This document shows, one piece after another, positions 1 through 28,417 of a DNA stretch of 40,062 bases. The translations under genes and the position numbers were made by a program. The stretch is from an uncultured archaeon (lineage in GTDB: Archaea > Aenigmatarchaeota > Aenigmatarchaeia > QMZP01 > QMZT01), in NCBI GenBank assembly GCA_964346665.1, contig CAYFVC010000035.1, positions 1 through 40,062 on the forward strand, in the 5' to 3' direction. Each line of letters opens with the position of its first letter. Positions within the stretch are counted from its first letter, which is position 1. The notes beneath the pieces were generated by a model. It saw only the letters and a program-made list of their open reading frames with translations. It searched no databases and had not been told where the DNA came from.

Positions 1-3000
1 GTTATAATGAACAGCACACTTATCAACACATTGATTATCCCACAAGGAAAAGAAGTACTTCGTGGTTCTAACTTAACTATTCAGGTCAGGGTGAACGATA
101 GTTGTGATAATAACATAACAGATGCGAACTTGACGATAAGAATGGTTAGTAACAAGACAAGTGAAACATTTAACTGCTCGGATATCACTCATGTAGGAAA
201 CGGCTACTACAACTGCACCTTCAACACCTCAGCAAATCCAGGAGTGATGCCTGCGAAGGGATATGAGATCATAATAAACTCCTCAAAAGAGTCTTACATG
301 TCGGACACCATATCGGTGAACTATTCGTCTTCATCGTCCTTCTTCATCGAAACAAAACCAGTAATAGAGAACAACTCCTGGAATCTAACGCCTTCGGATG
401 ACTGGGGCTGGGGAGAGACTTACACATTCACGGTTAACGTAAGCGATGAGGACGATGATAACATGACAGTGGAGATATGGGTGAACGTAAGTGGAGGCTG
501 GAACAACATCTACACGAATTCCACCGTGAATGGCGTAAACAAGACAGTTACGTACATCTACGACGCATTTGATAACGATGATATCGGAAACAGACAGTAC
601 GTCATAAACGTGACGGATGATGGTGACCACCCGAGAACAGGAGGTATTTCATACAACGATTCAACACCAATAGAAAACTTCACCATTTACAAGGATGACA
701 TTTCCTTCGAAATTTTGTTGGGGGATGGGGACATCGTTCAGAGAATAACGGGATCTTTCACCTTCAGGGTTAGGGGATGGGATATAGACAAGGATCCGAA
801 CGAGACAATAAGTGACGTTAGAGGTAGATTCTGGTATACAAAAGACGGAGTAACATGGAGTGTTAGCACGGAGAGATTTACCGATACGGATGATAATCTA
901 ACTTTCGAATCATCGGAGATCAGCTTCGACTGCTCGTTCTTGGTCGGGCCCCAGAAATGGAAGGCTGAAATGTATGATAACACCTATTATAAGGACACGA
1001 ACTCGACGAACATCTCATGGACCATCTTCACAACCCCGCTAAACGCTACCATGTGGCTATCAAGCGACCATTACCTGAGAGGTGTGGATAACGTAACGAT
1101 GACAGCCAACGTAACCGAAACAGATGGTTGCGGACAGGTCAGCGGGGCAACCGTGTTTTTCAATGTTACCGATGATAACCAACAGCAGGTCCATACCTGC
1201 ACAGGGCAGGAAATATCCAGTGGTATATATGAATGCAATATAACCCCAAGCACACACGCCGGCTGGTCATCAGGATTTTATAACGTGACCGCCAACATTA
1301 CCAAAACATATTACAATGGAACATCTTTGGATGGGGATGAGACCGAAACGTTCTTCCTGGCTACCAGTCCTTATTTCCAGAGTCTGCAGGCGATAAGATC
1401 AGGGGGGTCCGGCTCAACAGGAGGATGGGGCGAAACATGGGAGTTCCAAGCTAATTTGCTTGATCCTGATTCCAATTATAACAATGTCTCGCTTTACGCC
1501 AACCTCACAGGCGGATGGGAGAAGATAAACGAAACCTACACCACTCCGAAACTTGTAAGGTTCCGTGGACATCAGTTCAACTGCTCAGTCCTTCAAGGCC
1601 AGTCAACCAGCCAGAAACAATTCAACTTCACATCCATCGATGTATGGAACTACATGAGCTCGTCCGTTGCGAATTTCACGCTCGAAAAGGACGATACCAG
1701 CGCTACTGCATCCTCGCCTTATGGCGTAACGATAAACAGGGATTTTGACGATAATGAAACCTTAGAGATATACATTAGAGACACGGATAACGGTTCTTCA
1801 ATCGTGGGATCAGGAGTGGAGGGAGCGTTCTGGACGATGACGAATGAATCAGACCCCCCAAGCCAAGACGGTTCGTATATCTTAGCGAAGATAAACTACA
1901 CGGATTCCAGCGGTTATTTGAGATACACTTTCAACCCTAACTGTTCGTATGGTGTAGGAGATCTGTACTGGAGAGCTGGAACGTATTACAACGACACGTG
2001 TTACAAAGGGGCGAGTTCTGCTATTTCAGGTTACAATACAGGCGCAAGGCTAATGATAATAAAAGGACAACTGAAAACGAACCTGACAGATCCAAACGCA
2101 ACCGAGGCCTCTAACATCCTGGTTGGAGATAATGTTACGTTCAGGTTCGGGGTCCCAACGGATTGTAGCGGTATAGGGATAAACGAAAGCTACCAGACAG
2201 GGTTGTCCTTGGTTTTGCTTGAGCTGCAGAATCCGGAAAGTGGGTGGGAGAACTGTACGCAGGGTGGGGGTATAAATGATGAAGGGAATGGGTGGTACAA
2301 CTGCACATGGGAAACAAAAGGTCATAAAGGAGGGAATTACACTGTTAGGATAACTGTGAAATCCTCCTTAGATTACAACGACAACATAACCATTTTGACC
2401 AATTACACGTATCTAAACAACACACCTCCTGATTACGGTAACTTCTCTGTTTCGCCTTCAGAAGACGGGTGGGGCGCTGTCTACAACTACAGTGTTGACA
2501 TATGGGACGCCCAAGAGGATAACGTCACCTGCAAGCTTTTCGTGAAAACGAACAATTACGGGGGGCAGTGGATTTTGAAGAATTCAACTATCGTCTACGG
2601 AGGGAGGAGCAAGTGTTCTTTCCTAGTCAGCGATTTCGATTGTCAGGACATAGGAGACGATTCAGTTAATGCGTACATGTTCGAATTTGACGATGAAACC
2701 ACTATATTTAACACCACCAACCAGAGCGGACCGAACATAACGATAGACAGCGTGGAGATCTCGTATTACTATGGGAACCTCTCGGAGATCAACAGATCTG
2801 ATGACGAGCCGAACAGCACGGCGCTCCTCATGGTGTTCGTTAACGACACGGATAAGGATCAACCTGCGGATGCGAACGTTACGTTCTGGGTGACCATAGA
2901 CTCCTCTGACCCGAACAGCTGGGATTCAGGGAACGTAACCATAACGAATTCCTCAGGTATTGCGAACGTTTCTTTCAATCCTGAATGTACTCCGCAGTAT

Positions 3001-6000
3001 ACGGTCGGGAACCACTCATGGAAGGCGGGGGTAACGGATGGGTGTTATGCCGAAGTGAACATCACCGAAGATCTTAACTTAACGATTTACGGAACGCTGA
3101 AAACGACAATAAAAACAACGGAACTTCCAACGGGCACAGAAGTTCTGAGGGGCGACAACATAACAGAACAGATCTACGTGAGCAGCGATTGTTTTACGGA
3201 TGTTGATGATGCGAACACCACGATTGAATTAATCCATGAAGATAGCATTACAGTTTATAACTGCACGCCCATGTACAGTATCAGTTCCGGGGAGTACGAA
3301 TGCATATGGAACACGACGGGGATGAAGGCTAAATGGTACGATACGAGGGCGAATTCATTCCGGGACCTATACAACATGAATACAACCACCCTCGAAAACC
3401 ACTTTTTCATAAAGACAAAACCTGTTCTTTCCAACGAGACCGCTGATAAAGATCCTGCAGGTTGGGGGGAGAACAGGAGCTTCAGCGTTACAGTGAATGA
3501 TGACGACCTGGACAACGTGACAGTCGAGCTTTACATAAAGTGCTTGGAAACGGTTGGGGGGAGCTGTCCGGGAATATACTCGGATAATGACTGGCATTGG
3601 GAAAATGACGTAACGCTCGAATCTCCTGTAAACGAGACTACCCAGCTGAGCGTGAGTGATAATTTCTACGGAATTGGCTGTCCGACAACAGGGAATTGGA
3701 GCTACAGGTTCAACGCCACGGATATCCCTCACGATTACGAGGATTCGACAACACCGCACAACTTCACCGTAGAGAAAAATGACGTGATATATGAGCCAAT
3801 TAGCGGTTACGACAACGAGACTGTATGGAGGAACGGAAGTGACTCGATAGTCCTCAAAGTGAGAGTCTACGATAACGACAGCAAGTCATACGCGGGATCC
3901 GCCAACGCAACTGTATGGGTAACCAAAAACGCCTCTGATCCTGATAGCTGGGATATAGGAAAACATATAGATGTTGACGGGAGTGGCTACATTAACTACA
4001 GCTTCTTCGATGATGGCGAGATGCCGATGCATGAGTGCAACTACACCGTGGGGTTCCACAACTGGACCGCCGGAATTGGGGGAATAAATGAGGATACCTG
4101 TTATAAAACCTCGAATTCATCCATATATAACCTCAGTGTATGGTCGGATCTTAGACCGATCATAGTGAAGCCGCTCGCGACAGAGGGCTTCCTTCAGGGA
4201 GACTTGATAAACATAAGCGGTTACGTTGAGGACGATTGTTCGTGGAGGATGCCTTACGGGGTGGAAGGCGTCACCATCGACCCGTCAAGTGGAACGCAGA
4301 GGTTCATACTCAAGGCATATGTTCCTTTCGATTTATATCGTTACTGCAGTACAAACTGGCAGGAGGGAGAGGGATATTACAACTGCACATGGGACTCAGC
4401 GACTCAGCAGAGGGTGTTGTGGAACATAACGATGAGCATTGACAAGGATTACTACGCCCCGAATTCGACTACAGAGATCGAGGCCTTCCACTTGGGGAAT
4501 AACCCTTACCTTACGACTCCTGCAGGGGTCAGCCCGACTGTTGAGGGATGGGGCTACAACTTCACATTATATGTCCGCTTCGGTGATGCAGACCAGAACC
4601 CGAACAACATCTCCCTGTGGAAGAGCTTTGATAATCAAACATGGGAGCATGTGAGTACAAAGACAGATGTGGTTTCATCAGGAAAAAATCTTAACTTCCG
4701 CGAGAAGTTCACGTGCGCGGATTCCTTGCCGACGCCCGGAAGGATTAACTATTACAAGTTCAACGTCACCGATCCCTATGGATACACCGATGAGATTTAT
4801 CCCGGGACGTTCAACCTCACGGAGGACAGCGTGACCTTGTTTATAAACTACTCCGAGAGCAGCGATAACATTAGGAGGTTGGGAAACGACCAAGCACTTC
4901 TGAAATTCAGGATAAGGGATGATGATTACAGTTACCTGAATCCGAACGGGAGTCATTATCCGACAGGGGCGGACGGTCTCGTATGGGTAACCAGCAACGG
5001 AACGAATTACACAAACGTTCTTAACTGCACATCGAACGACGGACATTGTGAGGTCGATTACGACCCGAACTGTTCGACATCCGAAGTGGGTATACAATAT
5101 TGGAAGGGAGGGACGAACGATACGTGTTACGAATACGAGAATTCAACGAACGAAACGCTCGAAGTTGTTGGGCAGCTTAACATTTCAATCGTGAACCCCA
5201 CCGAAAACGTCATACTAAACAGGAACACTACCGCTGTATTCAACGCTACTGTTTATGATGATTGTGATCTCTCGATCAACGATTCTACCGTCATTTGGTA
5301 TAATGAGAGCTGGTATAACCTCACTTCAGGATACAACACTACTTGGTTTGTTCCTTACAATTATCCTTTGGGTCCAGACGTGATAAGGGCGAACACAAGC
5401 AGAACGTATTACGATGGTAACACGAATTCAACCTCCGTGTATATATACGGTTGGGCTGAGCTTGATTCCATGTATCCTCCAAATGGAACGGTTGATTTAG
5501 CAGGCGATGTGAAAACGATAAAATGTCATTTGAGGGATGCGAACACGCTCAAAAACATTACTAATTACACAGTTGCCTTCTATGTCAACGAGGAATATCA
5601 GGAATCAAAAAACACGAGCAATCAGTCAGGAGAGGAAGGCAACGCTTCATTCCTATTCAGTACGAACAGGCCTGGGGGTTGGTATAACCTCACATGCGCT
5701 ATAAACAGCAGTTCATACTGGTATTACAACGTTTCCACCCCGAACATAACAAAAGAAGTTCGTATATCAAGACCGTTGATAATAGACCAGATAGTAAGAG
5801 ACCCTTCTGATGGAAAGATTTATAGGAATGATTCTAGTGGATATTCCCCAAATCAGGTCAACATAACAGTCCACTTGAAGGATGCGGATCTGCCTGGCGA
5901 GGGAGCGGATAACGCAACGGTGTGGTTCTACAACCATTCTCAGGCATATATAGGTAACTGCACGACGAACGCTTCTGGATGGTGTAATGAATCGGTTTCC

Positions 6001-9000
6001 TGGAACCCGGTCGATACGATAACACCTAACTATTACACCATCTACATAAACGCAACAAAACCTGGAACCAATGAGAATTCAACAACCAACACCACCACCA
6101 TCGATGTGATGGGGGTATATATAGCGAACATAACTTCTCCTGCCAATGGATCACAGTATGGTAGGGGGGATCTCATCTCCTTCAACGCCAGCATAAGGGA
6201 TGAGAACTGGAACTGGTTCATTGGAGGAACCAATTGGGTGTACTGGTACAACGATACTGGGGACCATATAGAAACGACGGTTTCAGGAGAGCAAAGCTCG
6301 TTTGATTCGAGCACGCAAGCTCCAGGTTTCAGAAACTTCACCGCAAGGTCCGAACCTGGCTTGCCTCACTATTATGCTGAAAATGATACCGTTACGGTTC
6401 ATATAACTGGATGGGCTGATGTTGTGTGGGTGTATCCACCACATCTTTCGAGCGTAACGTATCCTTACACGTTCCAGAGGATTTGCAGGGTTGTTGACTA
6501 CGTTACTAGTGTAGGAATCGAAAACTATCCGATCAATTTCTCCTACTTAAACGAGACTTTGGGAGAATGGGTTTACAATGGAACGTATCTAACTAATTCG
6601 ACCGGTTATGCAAACGCCAGCTGGACACCTTGGGATAAAGGGAATGTAACGTTTAATTGTACGATCTGGGACAATTCCTCGCTTGAATACACAACAAATA
6701 TAGCGAGTGTAAGCGCAACAATATGGGTTAAGGATAATGTCCCGCCAACCATAGAGAATGTTTCAATCATTCCTAACCAGAGCATGGAGGCGTGGATGAA
6801 CACCACAAACATATCTGCGGACGTAACGGATGATTACGCGGTCGATAGTGGTGGTGTATGGGCTTACATAGGGCTTCCGAACGGAAGTTACGAGAACAAG
6901 ACAATGTCATTCGTTGAGAATAATACCTATCGCTACGAATATCTTCCGAAACTTAACGGAACCTACAATGTTACTGTATACGCAAAGGACGAAGGGCCCG
7001 AAAACAACGTTAACCATTCGGATGTTTACTACTTCGAGGTTTGGGGTAAAGCAACGGGGAAGGTGGATCAAATAGGATACGTGTACGCAGGGGGGATCAC
7101 GCAAACCAGTGATTTCAAATTCAACCTGACCATAAACTTCACCAATCTCGGGCCTCCAAATGCTTACTACGTAAACCTCACAATCTACGATGATTCCCCA
7201 GGTTACGTGAGCTACAACGAAACCTCATATTACTGCGGGAACATGACGAACGGCTCGTTCTGCAGTTGGACTCTTGAGGTCACTATATTGCCTGCTACAC
7301 CTCCAACAGGAATATACATTTACGGTAATGCTAGCTGGATGGATCCTGACAAAACAGATGCTTCTGTGATTAACTCAACATACGTGGTAGTTGCTTCCAA
7401 CCCCATTATTGAGATAATAGAGACTGGAATAAACAAGACTGTTATGCATGACAAGACAACTTACATTGATAACATCACCGTTTACTCGAGCGGAAATGAC
7501 AGGGTCAACGAAATATCGCTTTCGAACTTGGGAGGAAACTTTGATTATGATTGTTATGATTGTGGATTAATGATGGTTCCTGACTCCCAAGATGATCTAG
7601 CAGCAGGCTATAATTTCACCTCCCACATCTGGGTTACCATACCAAAGGGTAAATCACCCGGAATCTACTGGACCTACATAGTTGTTAATTCAAGTAACGG
7701 TGGATCGGATGAATACCTTCTGAACCTCACGGTTGAACCCAACGCCTCTTGGACCAGAACGCCGGATTCGTTCCCGACTGTAATAGCACAACCGAATACG
7801 AACGGTCTGGTAGGGAGGGTGAACGTCACGAACCACGGGAATGTGAAGATATACTTCGAGACATCAAGAAGGGAGGCAGCAGCATCTCTGCTCATAGTCA
7901 CACCGGAAGGTTTCGCCTCCGAAAAGTTATCGAAGAGGGTCATAAACATTTCGTATTCGGTCCCGCTGGCCTATCCGGAAGATATGTATTATGGAATTGT
8001 GGCTATAAGGAACGACACGCTACCTGCGGATCCTGTGGAAAGAACGGTTTCCTTCTGGCTAAACGTAACGGACCTCCCGCCCAACGTAACGGATTACAGC
8101 GTGATACCTACAGAGTTTGAAGTTGGTTACGAAACAGTGTATATCAACGCCACGATTGTGGATAATGTAGCGGTTGACAAGGGCTGGATAGATGTTGAGA
8201 GGCCTGGGGACATAAGTTATTCTTACGTTAGTAAACAGATTCACTCTTCGTCAGGGGATCCCGGATTCAACTACACTGAGGGTATAAATTACTCTGGAAT
8301 CATGCAGTACTTCAACATCACGATTTACAACCAGAACGAATCTTTCGTTTATGTGAACATAACGGTTAACGGTTTGCTCATCGCCTCCAACCAGTCCATC
8401 GAGAATTCAACGAACTTCACGATAGATGCCGTCCAGGAAAGCGTGAGTTTCGCTTTGCCAGGAAATCAAACCATAAACATCACTGTACAGAACTCTAGCG
8501 GAGACCTCATCAATTCAGCGTATACATCTTGGCTTAGCTACAGTTTAAGAATAGGGGAAACGTACAAAAAAATCATGGACAGGAATGCAAGCGAATTCAA
8601 CACAACCTATTGGACCAACATAAGCGGAATTCATGATTTGAGAATATGCGCGAATGACACGTCATCGAAAATCGGTTGCACATCAATCATATATCTCACA
8701 GCGGCAGGGAACACGAGTATAGCGATCTCGCCTAACGTTACAGTGATAAACGTAACGAACATGACGATCTATCAGGGAGAGGATATCCACATCGAATTCA
8801 ACATTTCGAATGTAGGTTACGCGAGGGCTTACAACATAACCATGAACATATCTTATCCAGAAAACTGGTCAGCTACTCCAGAGAATTTCTCATTCGGAAC
8901 ACTTTACAAAACTAACATATCTTCGAATTTCACCTTGATATCCGTTCCTCCGTTCACGCTGCCTGGAGAATATCTGGTAAACTTCACCGCCAACTGGATA

Positions 9001-20538: not shown

Positions 20539-20546
20539 TTTTAAAG
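20539..20546 (+). promoter_or_regulatory. TATA-like box (TTTTAAAG) 29-36 nt upstream of the ATG at 20575
   Basis: Lies in the only sizeable intergenic gap (115 nt) of the + block. Confidence 0.3.
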
Positions 20547-20574
20547 TTCTGAAAACTAGTATATTCATATAAGT

Positions 20575-21234
20575 ATGCGGAAAAAATCGAAACTCACGGA
20601 TTACAAGAATTTCTGGCTCATATGGATAAACTGCGCTGGGGAAAAAGAAGGGGTCTCGTTGTTTAAGATTCAGACAGAGTGGGATGTGAAAACGAATTAC
20701 TTGTACCACAACGAAGTGGGTCTGGGGAGACCGTTGTTCAGGTCCATGGTAAGGGAGAATTACATAGCGAAAGAAGGTAAGCGCCTGAAAGCGAAATTTG
20801 AATGGATACCAAAATTCATAAGGGAAAAATACGAAGGGGAGAGGAAGGGTCTATGGTTTCCCGATTCTTTGCTCAGGATTAAATGGGGGGCTGTTCAGAA
20901 ATTCATCGAAAAATATCATCCCGTACTTTTCAGAATGAAAAACCTAAAACTTCTGTACAAGAATGATAAGGAATTAATAGGGAAATCCGGAACGCATGTA
21001 TTCACGGATGTTTTTCTTTACGTGTTGTTTTCTAATCTCAGAACATTCTGCAAGAAATACGAGGCTGATGTTGTTCTGAGAATAATATCCACCCTAATTT
21101 CACTTTCAACCGATAGGGATTTGCTGAATTACATACACAGGCTAGATTCAGAACTAGGGAAAGTTCCCGACTTCCCCGTATTGGTTAGGGACGAGAACGA
21201 ACTGTCGAAAATATTGTGTACGCTGAAATGGTAA
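20575..21234 (+). CDS. Hypothetical protein (219 aa), no family recognised
   Basis: ATG-initiated ORF with its own upstream A/T box and coding-like composition. There is no TM segment and no motif I can name. Confidence 0.6.
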   Translation: MRKKSKLTDYKNFWLIWINCAGEKEGVSLFKIQTEWDVKTNYLYHNEVGLGRPLFRSMVRENYIAKEGKRLKAKFEWIPKFIREKYEGERKGLWFPDSLLRIKWGAVQKFIEKYHPVLFRMKNLKLLYKNDKELIGKSGTHVFTDVFLYVLFSNLRTFCKKYEADVVLRIISTLISLSTDRDLLNYIHRLDSELGKVPDFPVLVRDENELSKILCTLKW

Positions 21235-22071: not shown

Positions 22072-22335
22072 ATGGTCTATGAAATAGTTATTATTTTCCT
22101 CCTTGCAATAATTTGTTTTTTATTATACAAATTATATAGAATTAAATATGAAGAGGGGGGCGGAAGCGAGTTGATACCCAAAGGGTGGAAAAAAGATTTG
22201 ATGGAACTCGATAGCGAAAAGGGGAAAGAATTCGAAATGCGTTTCGAGGATATAAACTCTCGTATTTCGGAGATTGAGAAAAGAATCGAAAGGTATGAAA
22301 GAATTGTTAAAAAACTTGTCGAGGAATTGAGCTAA
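22072..22335 (+). CDS. Small membrane-anchored coiled-coil protein (87 aa)
   Basis: N-terminal TM helix is VYEIVIIFLLAIICFLLYKLY. The cytoplasmic helical tail is FEDINSRISEIEKRIERYERIVKKLVEEL. The next gene starts 9 nt downstream. Confidence 0.65.
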   Translation: MVYEIVIIFLLAIICFLLYKLYRIKYEEGGGSELIPKGWKKDLMELDSEKGKEFEMRFEDINSRISEIEKRIERYERIVKKLVEELS

Positions 22336-22344: not shown

Positions 22345-24264
22345 ATGGTAAGAAAGAAATCTGCTAAGCCAAAGGGCGAATTTGAAAAAATGGGTGATCT
22401 GGAGAAGGGAATGAGTAAAAAAAAGGAGAGCACAGAGGATATAATAAAGGAGATAGAAACCTTTGATGCCACCAAAACAGATAGGCCCGTAGGGGAAGAA
22501 ACGCCTCCGAAAACCGAAGTTAAAAAGAAAGCAGGTGGGGAAGAGGCTGAAGGCCTCAAGAAAGAACTGGAAAGGGAAAGGGAGAAGACCAAAAGCCTGG
22601 CGAAGATAATAGAGAAGGTTTCAAGTGCTGCGGACAAGCCTGTGGAGAAACCTGATGAGAAGCCCGCTGTACCTGACGTTGAACCGAGATTGAAAGAGAT
22701 CGAAAGCAAAATGGACGAGAAAATTCAGTCGCAAATGAAGGGTATTAAGGATGCTGTGGCTGCGATGGGGGCGAAGATGGAAGAAGCTGCGAAATCCGGG
22801 AAAAGCGAAAGGACAAGCACCAAGGTAAAGGATATGATAGACAATGTTCAAGCTGATACGACAAAGAAAATAACAGAGATTGAGGAAACCATGAGAAAGA
22901 TGGTCGAAAAGGCCGAGGAGCCTAGAAAAGAAGAGGGTGATGTTTCGAAAGGTCTTGCCGCATTGGGCGGTGGTGTTGGTCTTAAGAAAGAAATACTTGA
23001 GATGAGAAGTTCTCTGAAGGATTTGGAGAAAAGCATCAATGAACTTCGTGACGAAACAGACACGAGGATAACAAGGATAAAGGAGCAGACAAGAGTTCTC
23101 GAGAAAATCCCCGTAATTGAGGAGAAACTTGAGGGTCTCATAGAAAAAATGAGCCCAGGGAACATAGAGAAACTGAAGAAGTTCGTTTTCTCCGCGGATG
23201 AGATAACGAGTGAGTTAATACCGAATGAGATAGAAAAACGAATGACGAAAGATCTCACCCCCGTATTCAACGACATGAAGAATGTGAGGGACGATATTGA
23301 GAAACTGAGCGAGGGTATAAAAACTATATTCAACGATATAAACTTTTTCAAGGGAGAAATCAAAACTCTCTACAAACTCGGGGACTACATAACGGAACTC
23401 CAGAAAGAAAAGGAAAAGATACACAAAAAGATGAATGAAAAGGAAGGAAATCTCATAGGAATGATCAACAAGCTTGAAGGGCTGATAAAGAAAAAGACAG
23501 ACCTTATGAGTGAAAAGGTAGGGGAATTCGAGAAGACAATCGAAGGTAAGGTTAAGGAACGTTTCAATGACCTGACTGAATCCAAGTTCACCGAACTTGA
23601 GGACAGAACGGAGAAAAACCTAGCGATATCCAGGGTGAAAGTAAATGATATGGTTTCAAAGTTCGTTCAGTTCCAGAACGTTGTGAATCCCACGCTTTCG
23701 CTCGTTAAGGAAGAGTTCGAAAAACTTAACACGAAACTTGAGAAATTGAAGAGTGATCAAGCGGATCTTGAGGATGAGATGGAAGAAACTGTAAATGGGA
23801 TGTTCACTGACCTTGCTGAACCAAGGATGAAGGAGATCAGGGAAGAGACCACCAAATTATCAAGCAAGGTGAATGAAAGGCTTGAAGATTTCGAATCCGA
23901 ATTTGTCCAGTTCCAGAATGTAATAAATCCTACCCTTAACCTCCTGAAGAACGATATTTCGAAGATTGACAACAAAATCGAAAATTTGAAAACGAGGCAT
24001 GATGATTTGAAGGGGAACGTGAAAGAATTCGAAAGTTTCAGGGAAGCGATAGTTTCCTTAAACGAGGGAGTGAGGTCATTAGAAAACAATCAGAAGGATT
24101 TGGAAAATAAAATTTTGATTCTGGGAAGCAAACTTGGCGAGACCAGGGAGGAATTCAACAACATTGTCAAGCAGAGCCTTATCGACAGAAAGAAACTGGA
24201 CGAGGAATCAAAGAAGCAAAGGGAAAGGATAAATATACTTCTCAAAGAGTTGAAGGGTTCATGA
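22345..24264 (+). CDS. E/K-rich coiled-coil protein (639 aa)
   Basis: ATG is preceded by GGGGT (SD-like). No TM segment and no P-loop. It contains an 80-aa internal repeat marked by FVQFQNV[VI]NPTL at 23662 and 23902. The stop overlaps the next start (ATGA). Confidence 0.8.
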   Translation: MVRKKSAKPKGEFEKMGDLEKGMSKKKESTEDIIKEIETFDATKTDRPVGEETPPKTEVKKKAGGEEAEGLKKELEREREKTKSLAKIIEKVSSAADKPVEKPDEKPAVPDVEPRLKEIESKMDEKIQSQMKGIKDAVAAMGAKMEEAAKSGKSERTSTKVKDMIDNVQADTTKKITEIEETMRKMVEKAEEPRKEEGDVSKGLAALGGGVGLKKEILEMRSSLKDLEKSINELRDETDTRITRIKEQTRVLEKIPVIEEKLEGLIEKMSPGNIEKLKKFVFSADEITSELIPNEIEKRMTKDLTPVFNDMKNVRDDIEKLSEGIKTIFNDINFFKGEIKTLYKLGDYITELQKEKEKIHKKMNEKEGNLIGMINKLEGLIKKKTDLMSEKVGEFEKTIEGKVKERFNDLTESKFTELEDRTEKNLAISRVKVNDMVSKFVQFQNVVNPTLSLVKEEFEKLNTKLEKLKSDQADLEDEMEETVNGMFTDLAEPRMKEIREETTKLSSKVNERLEDFESEFVQFQNVINPTLNLLKNDISKIDNKIENLKTRHDDLKGNVKEFESFREAIVSLNEGVRSLENNQKDLENKILILGSKLGETREEFNNIVKQSLIDRKKLDEESKKQRERINILLKELKGS

Positions 24265-27200
24265 GCGAGCTTACAGAACTCGAGGAGGGATTGAGGAAGC
24301 TCAAAGAGGACAATCTAGAGAAGAAGCGACTGGTTTCTCAACTGGAAAGGGAAAAGAAATACCTTGACGAGAGAAACAAGTATTTGATAGAAAAGCTTAA
24401 GCAGGCAGGCGTGTTGTACGAGGAAGCGGGGAAAAGGGTTGTGGATTTCGTAAACGTACACGTAAAGCCGTTGAGAACGAAACTCGCTGATTTTGATTCA
24501 AGACTTTCAAAAATCAAGGAGTACGAAAGGTCTATAAATTCCACCCTGAAGAGGATTGAGTATGTCGAGGAGGTGGTTAATGGTTTCAAAAACGAGTTGT
24601 TGAAAACCCGAGAAAAGGAAGCGTTGTTGTCCGCAAATGTGAAAGATCTAAAGAAGAAGGGTTCTGAGCTTTCGAAAAGAATATCCACTGTCCAGACATT
24701 CGGGTCGGAAGAGCTCGCTGAGAAGGTCGAGGAAATAAAGGGTAAGTTCGGAGAGGATGTTGAAGGGGTTGAGGATAAATTTAACGAGTTCAAGACAGGA
24801 GTTGAAAACACAGTAGATAATTTCAGGAAGGAGTTCGAAAGTGAAGCGAGTTCCTTAAGAGAAGTGGTTGAAGGGGCTGACCTTAAGAAAGCTAAAGAAC
24901 TTGATGAAGCGTTGGGGAGGGTGATGGAGGACCTCGCCAAAACAAAGAGAGAATTTTCGAAATCCCTGGCCTCTATGGAGAAGGCTGTCGAAAGGCTGGA
25001 TGTTAAAAAAACGGAAGAAGTGGGCAAATCAATAGAAATGCTCACAGCGAATCTTAATGAAAGGTTCGAAAGCTTTGCTGAAGACCTTGAAGAGCGGGTT
25101 AAAACTGCGGAGAATGAATTGAACGATTTCAAGGTGGAACTCGAAAAATCGCTTGGGGATGTGAAGACCGAAACGAGGGATTTTGTTAATTCCAAATCCA
25201 AAGAATTCGATTCCCTACTATATGAACTGCGGAACAAAATGGATGAACAGATGGAGAGTTCGGTAACGGAATGGAACGATAACCTAGGGAAAGTGAAATC
25301 TGATCTGATGAGCACAAAAAAAGAAATAGAAAAACTTATCGGGTCGGTGAACAGGAAAGTGGAAATCGGGGAGGAGAGAAGGGAAAAGAAGGTGGATAAT
25401 TCGCTTTCGGATATGCACTCCTCACTTTCTGAAAGACTGGATAGCATGAATAAGGATATTGATGGGAAGATAGGGGGGATAGTTGAGAATGTGGGGAGGA
25501 AATTCGAAAATGTTGAAGAAAGCCTTATTGAAAAGATAGTATCTGTCGAAAACAGTATGGATGAGATTAGAGCGAACTTCCAGGGTTTTGTAAATTCCAT
25601 GTCTGCTGATTTCGAAAATAAAATGAATTCTCTAAGAAAGGAATTCGAAAAACGTGACTCGAAAAGGGACAAAAGTTTCGAAAAGTTCTCGGAATCGTTT
25701 AAGAGCAATGTTGATGAAAAGTTCGGGATTTTAAGAGAAGGGATCGGAGGGGAAATTGAAGAAATAAAGGGTGAAACGACTTCTTTGCGGAAGGAGATGG
25801 ACAACTTCGTAGTTGATCTAAAGGAGAAGTTTGATGGGATCATAAAGGAGAAATCAAAGGAGTTTGAAATGATGGTGAATTCGCTTGTAGATGATACAAA
25901 AGCGATGGAGAAAGAGGTTAAAGGGGTTATAGACGACTTCAAAAAGGAGATAGAATCCAAGGAAATCGAAAGAGGTGAGGAGATAAACAAGATGGTAAAT
26001 GAGTTCATTTCGCAAAAAGGTGAGATTGACGGGAAAATCAAACAGCTCGATTCTAAGATATCGGAATTCTCTGAAACAAGTGAGGATATTCGAAAAGGGA
26101 TTCTTAAGGAAAGCCTTGTAGGGGTGAATGAAAGGGTCGAGGGCATAGCAGAAGGGATGGAAGAGAGATTCGACAGCGCCAAGGAAGATATGGAAAGGGA
26201 GGTTAACGAAGCTGTGGAAAATATTGATAACAGGGTAAAGGGGATGGAAACAAATCTTAATGACTTCAAGGTCGAACTTGAGAAAACGGTTGGGAAGCTC
26301 AGGGATGACGTGGATAATATCACGGGCAAGAAGACCGAGAAGATGGACAAGGTTGTTGAAAAAGCGAAGAAGGATCTTGAGGGAAGGGTGAAATCATTCA
26401 CTTCGGAGGTTTCAGGGGATATCGAAATGTTGAAGAATGATGTTGTTTCTATGAGGAACGAGTTTGAAAAGGGAGAAAGGGAGAGGGAAGGGAAGGTTGA
26501 GGAGACGAGGGAAAAGCTTGAGAAAGGAATAAAGGAGAGGTTTGATGATTTATTCGGAAGTGTAGAGGGGAGGATAAATGCTGTGGAAGGTGAAATCGAA
26601 TCTTTGAGTAAAGGCACGGAATCTCTCGTTAAGAATCTGGAAGCCGGATTCGAAAAGGCTGAGACAAAAAGGGAGGGGAAGATCGAGAAAGCAAAAACGA
26701 AGATTGAAAAAGAAATAAAAGAGGGATTTGATGATTTCGTTGGAAGAACTGAGGAGAGAATGAAGGTGGCGGAAAGCGAAGTCGTATCCTTGAGAAACAA
26801 AATGAATGATGTCCTCGGAGAACTTAGGGCAAACTTCGAGGAGGTTGTAGAAAAGAAATCGAAGGATTTCGAAAATATTATGAAAGAGTTGGTTGACAGG
26901 TCAGAAAAAGCGAAGAATGATATGGAATCGCTTGCTGGATATCTGGAAACCAAATTCCAGGAAGGTGAAAAAGAAAGGGAGAAAGAGGTAGGAAAATCCG
27001 TAAAGGAATTGATGGTCACGATGGGGATGATAGAAGGAAGGTTGAAGGGAGTGGACGAGGAAATGGACAAGTTTTCCGAGATAAGGGATAACTTGAAAAA
27101 CGAAATAATGAGGGAGAAGACTGACTTGATTGATGACAGGTTTTCCTCGCTTTCCGAGAACACGAAAGCGAAGGTATCTGACATGAGGAAATCGCTTAGA

Positions 27201-27551
27201 GAGGAAATGAAAGGATCAAGATCAGCCTACACAAGAGTTGAAGAGAAACTGGCCAAAATGAGCGATAGAATTGGTATGATTAAGGATCAGATTTTTGAAA
27301 TGAAAAAATCAAGAGACCTTGTATTAGGTGATGTGAAATCTTTGAATAAAACCTTAGAAGGGAACGTCGATTCAAAGCTCAAGAATTTCATGAAGGATTT
27401 GGAGAAGCGAATGAAAACTCAGGAGGAAATTTTGAATTTGAAAATGACGGAAATAGAAAGCAAAATCAATTCCGTTTCGGAAGAGATAACGAAAACCAAA
27501 AAGGAGAAAGAGGAACAGCTTGATGAAATACTTGAACACGTGGAATCATGA
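24261..27551 (+). CDS. E/K-rich coiled-coil protein (1,096 aa) with degenerate internal repeats
   Basis: ATGA overlaps at both ends. No TM segment and no Walker motifs, so it is not SMC/Rad50-like. The FEK.[ED].[KR][RE][ED][GK]K motif recurs roughly every 70-75 aa. N[ED]LNDFKVELEK occurs twice, at ~25122 and ~26259. Confidence 0.8.
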   Translation: MSELTELEEGLRKLKEDNLEKKRLVSQLEREKKYLDERNKYLIEKLKQAGVLYEEAGKRVVDFVNVHVKPLRTKLADFDSRLSKIKEYERSINSTLKRIEYVEEVVNGFKNELLKTREKEALLSANVKDLKKKGSELSKRISTVQTFGSEELAEKVEEIKGKFGEDVEGVEDKFNEFKTGVENTVDNFRKEFESEASSLREVVEGADLKKAKELDEALGRVMEDLAKTKREFSKSLASMEKAVERLDVKKTEEVGKSIEMLTANLNERFESFAEDLEERVKTAENELNDFKVELEKSLGDVKTETRDFVNSKSKEFDSLLYELRNKMDEQMESSVTEWNDNLGKVKSDLMSTKKEIEKLIGSVNRKVEIGEERREKKVDNSLSDMHSSLSERLDSMNKDIDGKIGGIVENVGRKFENVEESLIEKIVSVENSMDEIRANFQGFVNSMSADFENKMNSLRKEFEKRDSKRDKSFEKFSESFKSNVDEKFGILREGIGGEIEEIKGETTSLRKEMDNFVVDLKEKFDGIIKEKSKEFEMMVNSLVDDTKAMEKEVKGVIDDFKKEIESKEIERGEEINKMVNEFISQKGEIDGKIKQLDSKISEFSETSEDIRKGILKESLVGVNERVEGIAEGMEERFDSAKEDMEREVNEAVENIDNRVKGMETNLNDFKVELEKTVGKLRDDVDNITGKKTEKMDKVVEKAKKDLEGRVKSFTSEVSGDIEMLKNDVVSMRNEFEKGEREREGKVEETREKLEKGIKERFDDLFGSVEGRINAVEGEIESLSKGTESLVKNLEAGFEKAETKREGKIEKAKTKIEKEIKEGFDDFVGRTEERMKVAESEVVSLRNKMNDVLGELRANFEEVVEKKSKDFENIMKELVDRSEKAKNDMESLAGYLETKFQEGEKEREKEVGKSVKELMVTMGMIEGRLKGVDEEMDKFSEIRDNLKNEIMREKTDLIDDRFSSLSENTKAKVSDMRKSLREEMKGSRSAYTRVEEKLAKMSDRIGMIKDQIFEMKKSRDLVLGDVKSLNKTLEGNVDSKLKNFMKDLEKRMKTQEEILNLKMTEIESKINSVSEEITKTKKEKEEQLDEILEHVES

Positions 27552-28417
27552 ACGAGAAAATGGATAAGGTGAAGAGAAGGATAGACGAGATAAAGAAGGA
27601 GAGAGAGGAATTGAAGGAGAAATATGATTACCTTGTGGAACAAATGAAAAAAACGATTGACAAACATTCCCAAGATATCGAGTTCCTCAAGAATGAAGTG
27701 AGGGGAATCGCTGACAAGGAGGAGAAAGATGAAGAGGGGGTCTCGGACGTTCGCTCGCTGATGAATTCCATTAAAGATGAACTCAATGAAAAGGTTAACG
27801 TCCTCGATAAAGAAATAACATCTGAACTTTCGAAATTTAAAGGACTTGAAGAAAGGTTAGGTAAAGATGTTGAAGATTTCGAGAAATTCGCAAGTAAACA
27901 GAAGTCTAGGATAGATGAATTCGAATCAAAGGTTTCGGATAAGATCGACATGTTCGCAATCGAAAAGGAGAATCTAAGGAGGGATTTCACCTCGATTTCG
28001 AGTGATTTCAAGAATATAGGAAGTCATTTGGATTCCTTAAAGGAGAAGGATTCTAATCTAAGCCAGCATTTACAAAACCTCTCACTCGAAATGGAGAACT
28101 TCAAAAAGGCGACGGAAGAAATTCTCGAGAAGTTGAAGGGGGAACAAAAGATATTCCAGGAGAATGTCGTAGCAAAACTCAATGAGGCGAGCAATAAAAT
28201 ACTCAACCGCCTTTCACAGAGCGAAGCGAAAACTTCTTCTGAGCTTGTAAAAAAATCGGAGGATATCAAGCTCTTCAGAGCGCACACGACACAATTCATA
28301 AATGATCTCGTAGTGAATTACGAAAAGCGATTCGAGATGATGAAATCCGAGATTGATGAGATCCTAAAACTGGTGGAAGAGCGAGTAAGGGCACAGCGAG
28401 CGATGATTTTTGAGTGA
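27548..28417 (+). CDS. E/K-rich coiled-coil protein (289 aa)
   Basis: ATGA overlap with the upstream gene. Heptad-like composition with no TM segment. Confidence 0.75.
   Translation: MNEKMDKVKRRIDEIKKEREELKEKYDYLVEQMKKTIDKHSQDIEFLKNEVRGIADKEEKDEEGVSDVRSLMNSIKDELNEKVNVLDKEITSELSKFKGLEERLGKDVEDFEKFASKQKSRIDEFESKVSDKIDMFAIEKENLRRDFTSISSDFKNIGSHLDSLKEKDSNLSQHLQNLSLEMENFKKATEEILEKLKGEQKIFQENVVAKLNEASNKILNRLSQSEAKTSSELVKKSEDIKLFRAHTTQFINDLVVNYEKRFEMMKSEIDEILKLVEERVRAQRAMIFE

What the first reader, a model, noticed from the sequence alone, without database searches (positions are those of the whole stretch)
1..28417. 28-kb co-directional locus linking two giant glycoproteins to a cytoplasmic ATPase, SHOCT-like, MinD and coiled-coil set: candidate undescribed trans-envelope apparatus
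Nine consecutive same-strand genes have tiny gaps or 4-nt start/stop overlaps. In order these are 51 nt, GTGA at 14520-14523, 115 nt, 33 nt, 33 nt, 9 nt, ATGA at 24261-24264 and ATGA at 27548-27551. The parts divide cleanly by predicted topology. Outside the cell are about 5,800 aa of sequon-saturated Ig/CARDB-like repeats in two single-pass proteins. Inside are a HerA/FtsK-type ATPase domain fused to giant protein 1, and SHOCT-like motifs on the giant protein 2 tail and a 514-aa partner. Also inside are a ParA/MinD ATPase with a MinD-like amphipathic C-terminus, an 87-aa TM/coiled-coil protein, and about 2,000 aa of E/K-rich coiled coil in three coupled genes. I know of no described archaeal machine with this parts list. 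Working hypothesis (inference): this is a surface attachment or cell-cell contact organelle. Its glycoprotein fibres would be anchored to an internal coiled-coil scaffold, positioned by a MinD-type ATPase, with a ring ATPase at the base. That would fit a symbiotic or small-genome archaeon.
Basis: partly seen in the sequence, partly recalled or inferred. Interest (0 to 1): 0.9.

Follow-up and report, generated by a model that had tools for sequence, protein, structure and literature searches.

The report
Giant surface-protein ATPase locus in DPANN archaeon
The 28-kb run is real, but it is two neighbouring conserved gene modules of a tiny symbiotic (DPANN) archaeon: a giant surface protein fused to an ATPase of an already published kind (SPEARE-like) with two apparently undescribed partners, followed by a separately promoted MinD plus coiled-coil module.

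Summary
All nine genes, gaps and overlaps are as described. The best relatives are Aenigmatarchaeota (DPANN).

g1 (at least 4,306 aa, cut by the window edge) is a sequon-rich ectodomain, one TM helix, a HerA-clade ATPase and a helical tail. This architecture is already published for nanohaloarchaeal SPEARE giant proteins.

What I did not find described:
- **Three-gene core.** g1, g2 and g3 travel together. g2 lies directly downstream of the ATPase in 70/72 species genomes, and a long g3 homologue follows in 32/47.
- **Shared motif.** A about 38-aa helical hairpin occurs three times in g2 and once in the cytoplasmic tail of g3. It recurs in the orthologues.
- **Second module.** g4, an archaeal MinD with a membrane-targeting helix, a small TM protein and coiled-coil genes form a unit. 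MinD follows g4 in 42/43 loci, and a g7-like gene is linked in 24/24.
- **Own promoter.** This second module has a conserved promoter region with paired palindromes.

The two modules are adjacent in about half of relatives, sometimes after inversion, and each also occurs alone. It is therefore not one operon, and their functional coupling is plausible but unproven.

Verdict: a new variant of a known kind. A host-contact or surface apparatus is the best reading, and the role of the ATPase is unknown.

The parts
1..12927 (+). g1: SPEARE-like giant type-I surface glycoprotein. At least 4,306 aa; the ORF is open at the window's 5' edge and the first ATG is at 7. The ectodomain is aa 1-3905.
   Evidence: ORF. 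No stop upstream of the first ATG. 262 sequons against 70 expected, all before the TM helix. Pfam NPCBM_assoc at aa 2923-2997. In relatives, 73/84 ATPase ORFs are open to the locus start. Complete relatives of 4.6-7.9 kaa start with signal peptides.
11722..11808 (+). g1 transmembrane anchor (aa about 3906-3934), followed by KKRRRRR (positive-inside).
   Evidence: Hydropathy scan and direct reading of the sequence.
11854..12726 (+). g1 cytoplasmic HerA-clade P-loop ATPase domain. Walker A GATGAGKT is at nt 11992-12015 and Walker B LLLVYDEVH at nt 12364-12390.
   Evidence: Pfam DUF87 35.8 bits (cut-off 23.2) and HerA_C 29.7 bits (cut-off 22). The family profile hits HerA 4d2i at E 5e-13. Walker residues are invariant in 23 relatives.
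12727..12924 (+). g1 C-terminal charged helical tail (aa 4241-4306), conserved in relatives.
   Evidence: Invariant D374, E378, A382, K385 and Y397 in alignment A1. It is not hit by the g2 hairpin HMM. It matches the 'coiled-coil at the tip' described for SPEARE-type proteins (PMC10266531). No coiled-coil predictor was run.
12979..14523 (+). g2: 514-aa cytoplasmic all-helical adaptor candidate. Three hairpin motifs lie at nt 13093-13206, 14185-14298 and 14410-14517. The central long-helix core is at nt 13480-14088.
   Evidence: No Pfam or PDB sequence match. AF2 model with pLDDT 72.8 and no significant Foldseek hit. A homologue lies directly downstream of the ATPase in 70/72 informative species genomes.
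14520..20459 (+). g3: 1,979-aa second surface glycoprotein. Signal peptide at nt 14520-14606, C-terminal TM helix at nt 20139-20195, and a cytoplasmic tail carrying the g2-type hairpin motif at nt 20331-20423.
   Evidence: for the TM helix and 121 sequons against 31 expected. The motif HMM built only from the g2 family hits aa 1938-1968 with i-E 1.6e-8. The same tail motif is found in at least 10 g3 orthologues. Full-length homologues at 31-66% identity occur in relatives.
20460..20574 (+). g3-g4 spacer: conserved promoter/operator region of module B. The palindrome ATAGTATAATACTAT is at 20460-20474, a TATA-like TTTTAAAG at 20539-20546, and a second site CTAGTATATTCATATAAG at 20556-20573.
   Evidence: The nucleotide alignment of 10 relatives has long invariant blocks. 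These are the only two intergenic TAGTAYA sites in the window. The 8-mer is about 48-fold enriched in the 260 nt upstream of g4 across about 2 Mb of related loci.
20575..21234 (+). g4: 219-aa conserved protein of unknown function. N-terminal winged-helix-like fold plus a helical domain; candidate regulator or MinD partner.
   Evidence: No Pfam, NCBIfam or PDB sequence hit. AF2 model with pLDDT 88 and pTM 0.86. No significant Foldseek hit, though the list is dominated by wHTH regulators. MinD follows it in 42/43 loci.
21268..22038 (+). g5: archaeal MinD ATPase with a C-terminal amphipathic membrane-targeting helix (nt 21991-22035, EGFFANLLKFFSRKK).
   Evidence: TIGR01969 minD_arch 241.5 bits against cut-off 201.75. 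Best PDB hit is A. fulgidus MinD-1 1hyq at 1.4e-46. The hydrophobic moment peaks at 0.71 at aa 244-254, and the helix is conserved in homologues.
22072..22335 (+). g6: 87-aa protein with an N-terminal TM helix and a charged C-terminal helix.
   Evidence: Homologues, or 71-75-aa ORFs, lie after MinD in L008, L010, L011, L087, L090, L091 and L100.
22345..28417 (+). g7 (639 aa), g8 (1,096 aa) and g9 (289 aa): E/K-rich predicted coiled-coil cytoplasmic proteins, translationally coupled by ATGA overlaps.
   Evidence: Composition. Only coiled-coil-type profile hits: SMC, Rad50 and ZorA-tail below cut-offs, and Apolipoprotein and Baculo_PEP_C marginal. g7-like genes are linked to g4-MinD in 24/24 informative loci. 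Orthologues in L087 are 54, 55 and 46% identical.
28491..30248 (+). g10: GlmS (glucosamine-6-phosphate synthase), a conserved downstream neighbour of module B. It may supply glycan precursors and is not necessarily part of the apparatus.
   Evidence: Pfam SIS and GATase domains. It lies downstream of g9 homologues in L087, L091, L097-L100, L105 and L107 at 70-78% identity.

Best explanation
The locus consists of two adjacent, separately promoted, conserved modules of an Aenigmatarchaeota-type DPANN archaeon. Together they most likely build and organise a cell-surface, host-contact apparatus.

**Module A (g1-g3).**
- g1 is a SPEARE-like giant N-glycosylated fibre. It is exported by a signal peptide that lies beyond the window edge and held in the membrane by one C-terminal TM helix.
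- Its cytoplasmic end is a catalytically intact HerA-clade ATPase. Such ATPases work as hexameric rings, so a ring would bundle six fibres at its base (inferred).
- g2 is a cytoplasmic helical adaptor carrying three copies of a helix-turn-helix hairpin.
- g3 is a second roughly 2,000-aa type-I glycoprotein whose short cytoplasmic tail ends in the same hairpin.
- The shared hairpin most likely mediates g2-g3 tail association and so couples g3 to the base of g1 (inferred).

**Module B (g4-g9).**
- It comprises a winged-helix-like protein, an archaeal MinD that binds the membrane through its C-terminal amphipathic helix, a small TM anchor and about 2,000 aa of coiled coil.
- It most likely forms a MinD-organised sub-membrane scaffold that localises surface machinery. 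Characterised archaeal MinDs position the motility machinery in this way (inferred).

**Shown versus inferred.** Shown here are the domain identities, the topology, the conserved gene linkage, the shared motif and the separate promoter region. Inferred are the physical interactions, the A-B coupling and the substrate of the ATPase.
For: **Architecture and family of g1.**
-.
- The fusion of a giant ectodomain to the ATPase is the family norm. 73/84 ORFs are open to the locus start. Among the top 150 cluster representatives, 68 are at least 2,000 aa and the longest is 7,878 aa, with the ATPase C-terminal. Complete members have signal peptides.
- The same architecture is published for SPEARE proteins, which were detected by proteomics. 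Similar sequences were reported in Aenigm-, Micr- and Woesearchaeota and in Altiarchaeales (PMC6642349; PMC10266531). These are the same lineages as.

**Module A linkage.**
- g2 lies downstream of the ATPase in 70/72 loci. A long g3 homologue follows in 32/47 loci with at least 9 kb downstream.
- The hairpin HMM built from g2 alone hits the g3 tail (i-E 1.6e-8) and the tails of at least 10 g3 orthologues. It does not hit the 2,024 aa of g7-g9.

**MinD association.**
- A MinD gene lies within 10 kb downstream in 22/47 loci. My rough estimate for chance is about 3%, assuming a few MinD genes in a roughly 1-Mb genome.
- Two MinD paralogue groups are involved, and both keep the amphipathic tail.

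**Module B linkage.** MinD follows g4 in 42/43 loci and a g7-like gene is linked in 24/24.

**A-B adjacency.** It survives inversions (L031, L032, L090, L140, L141). g3 lies directly upstream of g4 in 27/50 loci.

**Precedent.** Archaeal MinD4 positions the archaellum and chemosensory arrays (bioRxiv 10.1101/2020.04.03.021790, listed). FleN/MinD ATPases are linked with archaeal surface filaments and with wHTH regulators (PMC4858521).
Against: - Module B has its own conserved promoter/operator.
- Module B occurs with no module A within 10 kb in L087, L099, L089 and L123.
- Only 10/47 ATPase loci carry g4.
- The hairpin motif is absent from g1's tail and from g6-g9, so no sequence feature links A to B.
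- No ATPase-g2 fusion proteins were found.
- No structure or interaction was computed for any pair of proteins.
- Metagenome contigs include near-duplicates, so those counts are inflated.
- In small related genomes, adjacency can persist by descent.
- Direct sequence comparison with the named SPEARE proteins was not possible.
Confidence: 0.55

Rival explanations
1. These are two functionally unrelated operons that are neighbours only by descent. Module A is a SPEARE-type adhesin system. Module B is a MinD and coiled-coil cytoskeletal system for something else, such as chromosome or cell-pole organisation, division-related positioning, or positioning of pili.
For: - Module B has a separate conserved promoter/operator.
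- Module B occurs without A (L087, L099, L089, L123), and A occurs without g4 in 37/47 loci.
- No motif is shared between A and B.
- ParA/MinD ATPases with coiled-coil partners are a general theme (own knowledge: PomXYZ, ParA-Scy).
- A pilin-like gene cluster lies 4.5 kb downstream in the window.
Against: - The modules are adjacent in about half of g4-centred loci, and stay adjacent after inversion of one module relative to the other.
- In other Aenigmatarchaeota a second MinD paralogue sits inside module A, between g2 and g3 (L003, L004, L018, L022, L039, L060, L066). MinD-type ATPases are therefore tied to module A in two independent ways.
- In Haloferax the divisome is positioned by the unrelated Dip system, and the MinD studied there positions the motility machinery.
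Confidence: 0.3
2. Module A is a type IV secretion-like or Ced-like conduit. The ATPase ring pumps DNA or effectors through a channel at the base of the giant protein. This is the 'straw' proposed for nanohaloarchaeal giant proteins. It would feed the symbiont or manipulate the host.
For: [quoted passage not shown]
- Some homologues carry weak TraG/TrwB/FtsK Pfam hits.
- CedB and CedD are TM-anchored HerA/VirB4-like ATPases needed for DNA import (PMC11868833).
- The secretion proposal is made in PMC10266531.
Against: - The locus has no VirB4 N-terminal domain, no second VirB4-like ATPase and no polytopic channel protein of the VirB6 or CedA type. g1, g3 and g6 each have a single TM helix.
- NCBIfam CedD scores 35.6 bits against a cut-off of 600, and TraD 24.6 against 366.
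- The conserved partners are a helical adaptor and a glycoprotein, not secretion components.
Confidence: 0.15
3. g3 is the S-layer or major envelope glycoprotein of these archaea. Module A mainly serves to anchor or assemble the envelope, with g2 as the cytoplasmic tether, rather than to contact a host.
For: - g3 has a signal peptide, heavy sequon load and a C-terminal TM anchor. It is conserved over its full length at 31-66% identity and about 1,900-2,100 aa across the phylum.
- Large proteins with a C-terminal TM helix are read as S-layer-like in archaeal surface loci (PMC4858521).
Against: - No S-layer Pfam or NCBIfam family is matched.
- A separate S_layer_C protein is encoded next to module B in L087.
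- Abundance and lattice formation are untested.
- This reading does not explain the ATPase.
Confidence: 0.15
4. It is a HerA-based anti-phage defence system.
For: The ATPase domain hits the PADLOC models mad8 (55.7 bits) and HerA. g8 hits ZorA-tail models.
Against: - The hits cover only the generic P-loop domain or coiled-coil regions.
- No nuclease, Sir2, methylase or other defence partner is present.
- g2, g4 and g5 have no PADLOC hit.
- The ATPase is fused to a giant glycosylated ectodomain.
Confidence: 0.02

Closest known systems
SPEARE giant proteins of Nanohaloarchaeota (Hamm et al. 2019, PMC6642349; reinterpreted by the xylan-consortia study 2023, PMC10266531)
   Same: - The protein is very long and mostly extracytoplasmic, with adhesion-type domains.
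- It has a single TM helix near the C terminus, and the cytoplasmic domain is the most conserved part.
- That domain is now read as a VirB4/TraG/HerA-like ATPase, followed by a terminal coiled coil.
- It is found in DPANN symbionts. Similar sequences were reported in Aenigm-, Micr- and Woesearchaeota and in Altiarchaeales, matching the lineages.
   Different: - Direct sequence homology to the named proteins was not testable here.
- No laminin-G, protease, toxin or WD40 domains were detected in the part of g1 inside the window.
- In the cultured nanohaloarchaea the next gene is a second VirB4-like ATPase. Here, and in 70/72 relatives, it is the g2 helical adaptor followed by the g3 glycoprotein.
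- I found no mention of the MinD and coiled-coil linkage in those papers.
HerA / FtsK-HerA superfamily ATPases, including the membrane-anchored CedB and CedD of the Sulfolobales DNA-import system (PMC11868833)
   Same: - It is a P-loop ATPase of the HerA clade, with DUF87 and HerA_C above Pfam cut-offs and HerA as the best PDB hit.
[quoted passage not shown]
   Different: - It has no HAS-barrel or VirB4-like N-terminal domain. The ATPase starts about 45 aa after the TM helix.
- There is no NurA partner and no CedA-like channel.
- The NCBIfam CedD and HerA models score far below their cut-offs.
- It is fused to a giant ectodomain.
Archaeal MinD positioning ATPases (H. volcanii MinD4 and MinD2; FleN/MinD arCOG00589 linked with type IV pili and wHTH regulators, PMC4858521)
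   Same: - g5 passes the archaeal MinD model, has the deviant Walker A motif and has a C-terminal amphipathic helix.
- It is encoded next to a winged-helix-like protein and near surface-structure genes.
   Different: - The partners here are DPANN-specific: g4, a small TM protein and three long coiled-coil proteins.
- No archaellum or chemotaxis genes are present.
- Function is untested.
ParA/MinD plus coiled-coil scaffold systems of bacteria (for example PomXYZ of Myxococcus and ParA-Scy of Streptomyces; own knowledge)
   Same: The logic is the same: a MinD/ParA ATPase encoded with long coiled-coil proteins that form a positioned scaffold.
   Different: There is no sequence relationship of the coiled-coil proteins. 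The domain of life and the likely cargo differ. This is an analogy only.
DPANN-specific coiled-coil proteins (CCPs) next to type IV pilus loci (Hamm et al. 2023, bioRxiv 10.1101/2023.02.24.529834)
   Same: - They are long coiled-coil proteins conserved in cluster-2 DPANN, including Aenigmarchaeota.
- g7 has a weak nucleoporin-type TPR_MLP1_2 hit, in line with the 'putative nucleopore domains' of the CCPs.
- Pilin-like genes lie 4.5 kb downstream in the window.
   Different: - Membership could not be tested because the CCP sequences were not at hand.
- The published loci contain CpaF and TadC, which are absent from this window.
- No MinD link is reported in the passages I read.
SHOCT domain (Pfam PF09851 and related families)
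   Same: It is a short two-helix motif, often at the C terminus of membrane proteins. 4 of 25 motif instances hit SHOCT and 4 hit SHOCT_2, all below threshold.
   Different: No instance reaches the gathering score. The window's own four copies do not hit SHOCT at E<=10. Weak GvpG hits are more frequent (16 of 25).

Membership tests
SPEARE-type giant surface proteins (DPANN) | Very long protein, mostly extracytoplasmic, with adhesion-type domains | tested here: met
   At least 3,905 aa lie before the TM helix. There are 262 sequons, all in that part. NPCBM_assoc is above threshold, with weak Big_1, Filamin and Invasin hits.
SPEARE-type giant surface proteins (DPANN) | Single TM helix near the C terminus followed by the conserved cytoplasmic NTPase domain (VirB4/TraG/HerA-like) | tested here: met
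   TM helix at aa 3906-3934, then DUF87 and HerA_C with intact Walker A and B. The ATPase is 74-88% identical in close relatives against 36-47% for the ectodomain.
SPEARE-type giant surface proteins (DPANN) | N-terminal Sec signal peptide | not testable with these tools
   The g1 ORF runs off the window's 5' edge. Complete family representatives of 4.6-7.9 kaa do start with signal peptides.
SPEARE-type giant surface proteins (DPANN) | Terminal coiled coil after the ATPase | tested here: inconclusive
   A conserved charged helical-looking tail lies at aa 4241-4306. No coiled-coil or structure prediction was run on it.
SPEARE-type giant surface proteins (DPANN) | At least one laminin-G domain in the ectodomain (stated by Hamm et al. 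2019) | tested here: inconclusive
   No Laminin_G hit at E<=1 in the 3,900 aa inside the window. However, the N terminus is missing, most of the ectodomain matches no Pfam model, and the 2023 re-analysis does not list this domain.
SPEARE-type giant surface proteins (DPANN) | Sequence homology of the cytoplasmic domain to the named proteins (NAR1_1133, SVXNc_0300) | not testable with these tools
   Those sequences were not at hand, and cluster look-up found none of the cited accessions. The evidence is indirect: the same lineage distribution as reported, and a MAG labelled Nanohalarchaeota (L041) with a 59%-identical ATPase.
HerA helicase proper (HerA-NurA) | HerA-type ATPase core (DUF87 / HerA_C) | tested here: met
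   Pfam scores are above the cut-offs. The profile hits HerA 4d2i at 5e-13.
HerA helicase proper (HerA-NurA) | N-terminal HAS-barrel domain and a NurA nuclease partner | tested here: not met
   The ATPase starts about 45 aa after the TM helix. NCBIfam HerA models score 20-25 bits against cut-offs of 800-970. No NurA gene is in the window.
Type IV secretion / Ced DNA-transfer systems | VirB4 N-terminal domain, a polytopic channel protein (VirB6/CedA) and further T4SS parts | tested here: not met
   No such Pfam or NCBIfam hits. CedD scores 35.6 bits against a cut-off of 600. The membrane proteins of the locus each have a single TM helix.
Archaeal MinD (TIGR01969) | Score above the curated cut-off, and the deviant Walker A motif | tested here: met
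   241.5 bits against 201.75. GKGGVGKT is present. The best PDB hits are archaeal MinD structures.
Archaeal MinD (TIGR01969) | C-terminal amphipathic membrane-targeting helix (MinD-like, not universal in archaea) | tested here: met
   In EGFFANLLKFFSRKK the hydrophobic moment is 0.71, the maximum in the protein. The helix is conserved in homologues.
SHOCT domain | Match to PF09851 or a related family at the gathering score | tested here: inconclusive
   The four window copies give no SHOCT hit at E<=10. Among 25 family instances, 4 hit SHOCT (best E 0.0018) and 4 hit SHOCT_2, all below threshold.
Archaeal S-layer glycoprotein (for g3) | Signal peptide, N-glycosylation sites and a C-terminal membrane anchor | tested here: met
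   These are generic features and are not sufficient for membership.
Archaeal S-layer glycoprotein (for g3) | Match to a known S-layer family; lattice formation and abundance | tested here: not met
   There is no S-layer Pfam or NCBIfam match. Lattice formation and abundance are not testable here.
   A conserved promoter/operator block lies in the g3-g4 spacer. The modules occur separately.

The most novel reading that the evidence does not exclude
Modules A and B together encode one organelle, the localised host-contact site of DPANN archaea. Six giant SPEARE-like fibres would be bundled by a HerA-type ring motor. A second giant glycoprotein would be clipped to that base through a hairpin-motif adaptor (g2). 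A MinD-driven, membrane-anchored coiled-coil scaffold would place the assembly at one spot on the cell. The ring ATPase would power uptake of host macromolecules, or remodelling of the fibre.
Probability: 0.2. Interest if true: 0.85.

Novelty: new variant of a known kind. Interest (0 to 1): 0.6.

Why it matters
DPANN archaea live attached to other archaea, and how they hold on to and feed from their hosts is largely unknown. SPEARE-type giant proteins are the leading candidates, but they have been discussed mostly as single genes in Nanohaloarchaeota.

This analysis shows three things. Across dozens of species-level genomes of Aenigmatarchaeota and other DPANN, the giant ATPase-fused protein travels with a specific cytoplasmic adaptor and a second giant glycoprotein. 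These two partners share a tail motif. A MinD-type positioning ATPase and coiled-coil proteins are recurrently encoded alongside.

That gives a concrete, testable parts list and interaction model for the contact apparatus. It also gives a conserved operator motif and a candidate regulator for its scaffold module.

Tried and rejected
- **g2 structure.** A fold search of the g2 model against the PDB gave nothing significant (best E 0.24: ESCRT-I headpiece and CdvA helices). The profile against PDB sequences gave only coiled-coil noise.
- **g4 structure.** The model is good, but it has no significant PDB neighbour (best E 0.37) and no PDB sequence hit. The winged-helix reading therefore stays weak.
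- **Rosetta-stone fusions.** None of the 145 ATPase-family representatives carries the g2 profile or the hairpin motif.
- **Hairpin motif elsewhere.** It is absent from g1's tail and from g6-g9, so it does not link the two modules.
- **Internal repeats.** None were found by BLAST in g1 or g3. Only three weak similarities exist between g1 and g3.
- **Paralogy among g7, g8 and g9.** None was detected.
- **Defence-system reading.** Rejected.
- **RNA genes.** No Rfam family and no tRNA in the window.
- **Tying g1 to published SPEARE accessions.** The cluster look-up found none of the cited accessions.
- **Recovering the source contig.** The aim was to see g1's N terminus. Only short contigs with identical g4-g6 were found.
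- **Literature searches.** Searches for DPANN+DUF87, Aenigmarchaeota+HerA and DPANN+HerA+transmembrane returned nothing relevant. The SPEARE link came from 'DPANN' + 'giant proteins'.
- **Sigma-70 promoter/terminator scan.** Not used, because it does not apply to archaea.

Full report
**1. Observation**

The spacings are 51 nt, a GTGA overlap at 14520-14523, 115, 33, 33 and 9 nt, and ATGA overlaps at 24261 and 27548.

- N-X-S/T sequons are enriched 3.7-3.9-fold in g1 (262 against 70 expected) and g3 (121 against 31). They stop before the membrane anchors.
- g1 has one TM helix (aa about 3906-3934) followed by KKRRRRR and a P-loop domain. The domain passes Pfam DUF87 and HerA_C and has intact Walker A and B motifs.
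- g3 has a signal peptide and a C-terminal TM helix.
- g5 passes the curated archaeal MinD model and ends in an amphipathic helix.
- g6 is a small TM protein.
- g7-g9 total 2,024 aa of E/K-rich sequence that matches only coiled-coil-type profiles.

Caveats:
- The g1 ORF is open at the window edge and lacks a signal peptide, so it is truncated.
- Ig-like character rests on one above-threshold NPCBM_assoc domain per giant plus weak hits. There are no internal sequence repeats.
- Tight gene spacing is the rule in the whole window, which is 97% coding.

**2. Organism and the g1 family**

The closest proteins come from Aenigmatarchaeota MAGs.

- A pattern scan of one genome per species found at least 594 loci encoding a relative of the g1 ATPase domain. 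The best 80 are mostly Aenigmatarchaeota. A few are labelled Micrarchaeota, Nanoarchaeia, Woesearchaeota, Altiarchaeota or Nanohalarchaeota, plus one Heimdallarchaeota MAG whose 3.5-kb contig may be mis-binned.
- In 73 of 84 loci the ATPase reading frame stays open to the start of the fetched DNA. In 57 it has at least 1,000 codons upstream.
- An exhaustive HMMER search found 433 clusters (50% identity) at E<=1e-30. Of the best 150 representatives, 112 are at least 1,000 aa, 68 at least 2,000 aa and 23 at least 4,000 aa, up to 7,878 aa. The ATPase is at or near the C terminus.
- Complete members begin with classical signal peptides.
- The ectodomain is homologous along its length in relatives but evolves faster. 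In the close relatives L008-L013 it is 36-47% identical, against 74-85% for the ATPase.

A giant type-I surface protein fused to a HerA-clade ATPase is therefore a widespread DPANN family.

**3. This architecture is already published**

- Hamm et al. 2019 (PMC6642349) described nanohaloarchaeal SPEARE proteups of up to 8,553 aa. They are mostly extracytoplasmic, with a TM helix near the C terminus and a conserved cytoplasmic portion.
- The same paper detected the protein by proteomics. It noted similar sequences in Woesearchaeota, Aenigmarchaeota, Micrarchaeota and Altiarchaeales.
- A 2023 study (PMC10266531) re-analysed these proteins as signal peptide, about 75 Ig-like domains, TM helix, VirB4/TraG-like ATPase and terminal coiled coil. 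It proposed a secretion 'straw'.
- g1 has this layout, including a conserved charged C-terminal tail.

I could not align g1 with the named proteins directly. Membership therefore rests on shared architecture and matching lineage distribution.

**4. Module A (g1-g2-g3)**

- A g2 homologue lies directly downstream of the ATPase in 70 of 72 informative species genomes.
- Where at least 9 kb of downstream DNA is available, a long g3 homologue follows in 32 of 47.
- g2 has no Pfam, NCBIfam or PDB relative.
- Its AF2 model (pLDDT 72.8) shows three helix-turn-helix hairpins around a core of three long helices. It has no significant fold match.
- An HMM built only from g2-family hairpins hits the last 40 residues of g3 (aa 1938-1968, i-E 1.6e-8). 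It also hits the extreme C termini of g3 orthologues in at least 10 other loci. It does not hit g1's tail or the 2,024 aa of E/K-rich g7-g9.
- The motif is only weakly SHOCT-like. It gives sub-threshold SHOCT or SHOCT_2 hits in a minority of instances, and GvpG-like hits more often.
- No ATPase-g2 fusions exist among 145 family representatives.

**5. Module B (g4-g9)**

- g4 is a conserved, Aenigmatarchaeota-restricted 220-aa protein without known relatives.
- Its AF2 model is confident (pLDDT 88, pTM 0.86). It shows an N-terminal winged-helix-like unit, but Foldseek hits are not significant.
- In g4-centred loci from metagenomes and assemblies, MinD follows g4 in 42 of 43 informative cases.
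- A g7-like coiled-coil gene is linked in 24 of 24 cases. It is co-directional downstream in 16 and divergent upstream in 8.
- L087 and L099 carry g4-MinD-small ORF-g7-g8-g9-GlmS with g7, g8 and g9 at 46-55% identity.
- The 115-nt g3-g4 spacer is conserved at the nucleotide level among relatives whose proteins are only 66-72% identical. It holds two copies of a palindromic ATAGTATA...TATA element, in the window at 20460-20474 and 20556-20573. These flank a conserved block and a TATA-like box.
- These are the only intergenic TAGTAYA sites in the window.
- The 8-mer is about 48-fold enriched upstream of g4 across about 2 Mb of related loci, and is essentially absent upstream of g2 and g3 homologues.

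Module B therefore has its own regulated promoter. g4 as its regulator is an inference.

**6. Are A and B linked?**

For linkage:
- g3 lies directly upstream of g4 in 27 of 50 loci.
- Adjacency survives inversion of one module (L031, L032, L090, L140, L141).
- A MinD gene lies within 10 kb downstream of the ATPase in 22 of 47 loci.
- In several Aenigmatarchaeota a second MinD paralogue, 30-48% identical to g5 and also with an amphipathic tail, sits between g2 and g3.

Against linkage:
- Among loci with at least 8 kb on both sides, 4 of 9 have module B without A.
- Only 10 of 47 ATPase loci carry g4.
- No shared motif connects the modules.
- The metagenome set contains near-duplicate contigs.

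I rate functional coupling as plausible, at roughly even odds, and not shown.

**7. Mechanism**

Shown here:
- The topology.
- Catalytic motifs that are intact and invariant.
- Conserved linkage.
- The shared hairpin.
- The MinD membrane-targeting helix.
- The separate promoter.

Inferred:
- The ATPase forms a ring, as the superfamily does, at the base of the fibre.
- g2 bridges the g3 tail, and perhaps the ring, through hairpin association.
- MinD, g6 and the coiled-coil proteins form a positioned sub-membrane scaffold.

Characterised archaeal MinDs position surface machinery rather than the divisome. FleN/MinD ATPases and wHTH regulators are linked to archaeal surface filaments (PMC4858521).

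The substrate of the ATPase is unknown. A T4SS- or Ced-like pump is possible (PMC10266531; PMC11868833). However, the locus has no VirB4 N-terminal domain, no channel protein and no further T4SS parts.

**8. Verdict**

The giant-ATPase fusion is a new member of a known kind.

In the searchable literature I found no description of the following:
- the conserved g1-g2-g3 core;
- the g2/g3 hairpin;
- the recurrent MinD link;
- the g4-MinD-coiled-coil module with its operator.

That literature is incomplete. DPANN coiled-coil proteins near pilus loci have been reported and might overlap with g7-g9.

Overall this is a new variant of a known kind, of moderate to high interest.

Noticed in passing
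window 20460-20474 and 20556-20573 (g3-g4 spacer): Two copies of a palindromic ATAGTATA...TATACTAT-type element flank a block that is conserved at the nucleotide level. The element is about 48-fold enriched upstream of g4 homologues. It is probably an operator pair for a dimeric regulator, possibly g4 itself.
   Followed up: yes
L003 12666-13421; L004 3498-4256; also L018, L022, L024, L026, L029, L033, L039, L060, L066: In other Aenigmatarchaeota a second MinD paralogue sits inside module A, between the g2 and g3 homologues, without any g4. It is 30-48% identical to g5 and also has an amphipathic C terminus.
   Followed up: partly
window 28491-30248: GlmS (glucosamine-6-phosphate synthase) lies directly downstream of the coiled-coil genes. 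It keeps this position in relatives (L087, L091, L097-L100, L105, L107). This may relate to glycan supply for the roughly 380 sequons of g1 and g3.
   Followed up: partly
window 32932-36087, - strand (five ORFs of 171, 160, 356, 172 and 205 aa): A run of overlapping small genes, each with one N-terminal hydrophobic segment after a short charged leader. Several contain K/R-G-(A/Q), which resembles class III (prepilin) signals, and several contain multiple Cys. None has a Pfam hit. It looks like a pilin or minor-pilin cluster, but no assembly ATPase or TadC is in the window.
   Followed up: no
L001 and L002 (contigs JABAOH010126249.1 and ERR2564004_268868): These short contigs carry g4-g6 identical to the window. 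In L001 the g7 and g8 genes are broken up: a 16-aa gap in g7, and g8 split with an ORF called on the opposite strand. This is either an assembly or frameshift variant, or strain variation in the coiled-coil genes.
   Followed up: partly
L089 1-1138 (gene called at 12,847 aa) and L003 1-6109 (8,615 aa): Even larger giant genes lie near the module in relatives. The L089 giant has no ATPase hit within the fetched stretch. In L003 the giant is followed by several small ORFs before a 400-aa ATPase gene, which may be a fragmented fusion.
   Followed up: no
window 24261-27551 (g8): g8 just passes the Pfam gathering score for Apolipoprotein A1/A4/E (92.5 against 90). It clearly passes Baculo_PEP_C (77.9 against 38) and hits the long cytoplasmic tail of ZorA models in PADLOC. 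I took these as amphipathic-helix and coiled-coil composition effects, but a lipid- or membrane-binding helical repeat is not excluded.
   Followed up: no
window 38378-39067: This 690-nt stretch is the only long stretch without a long ORF in a 97%-coding window. It holds only overlapping ORFs of about 104-115 aa on both strands, and no Rfam or tRNA hit.
   Followed up: no
L070 and L074 (one Nanoarchaeia MAG); L047 and L086; L058 and L085: Some genomes carry two separate loci with the giant-ATPase gene, so there are paralogous copies of the system. This parallels the multiple SPEARE genes reported in Ca. Nanopetramus.
   Followed up: no
L005 and L006 10001-15252: A more distant, complete 549-aa member of the ATPase family (49% identity in the ATPase domain, short ectodomain) lacks g2 and g3. 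Instead it is followed by a 1,169-aa protein with a SecA_DEAD domain. The family therefore has other partner sets outside the giant-fusion clade.
   Followed up: no
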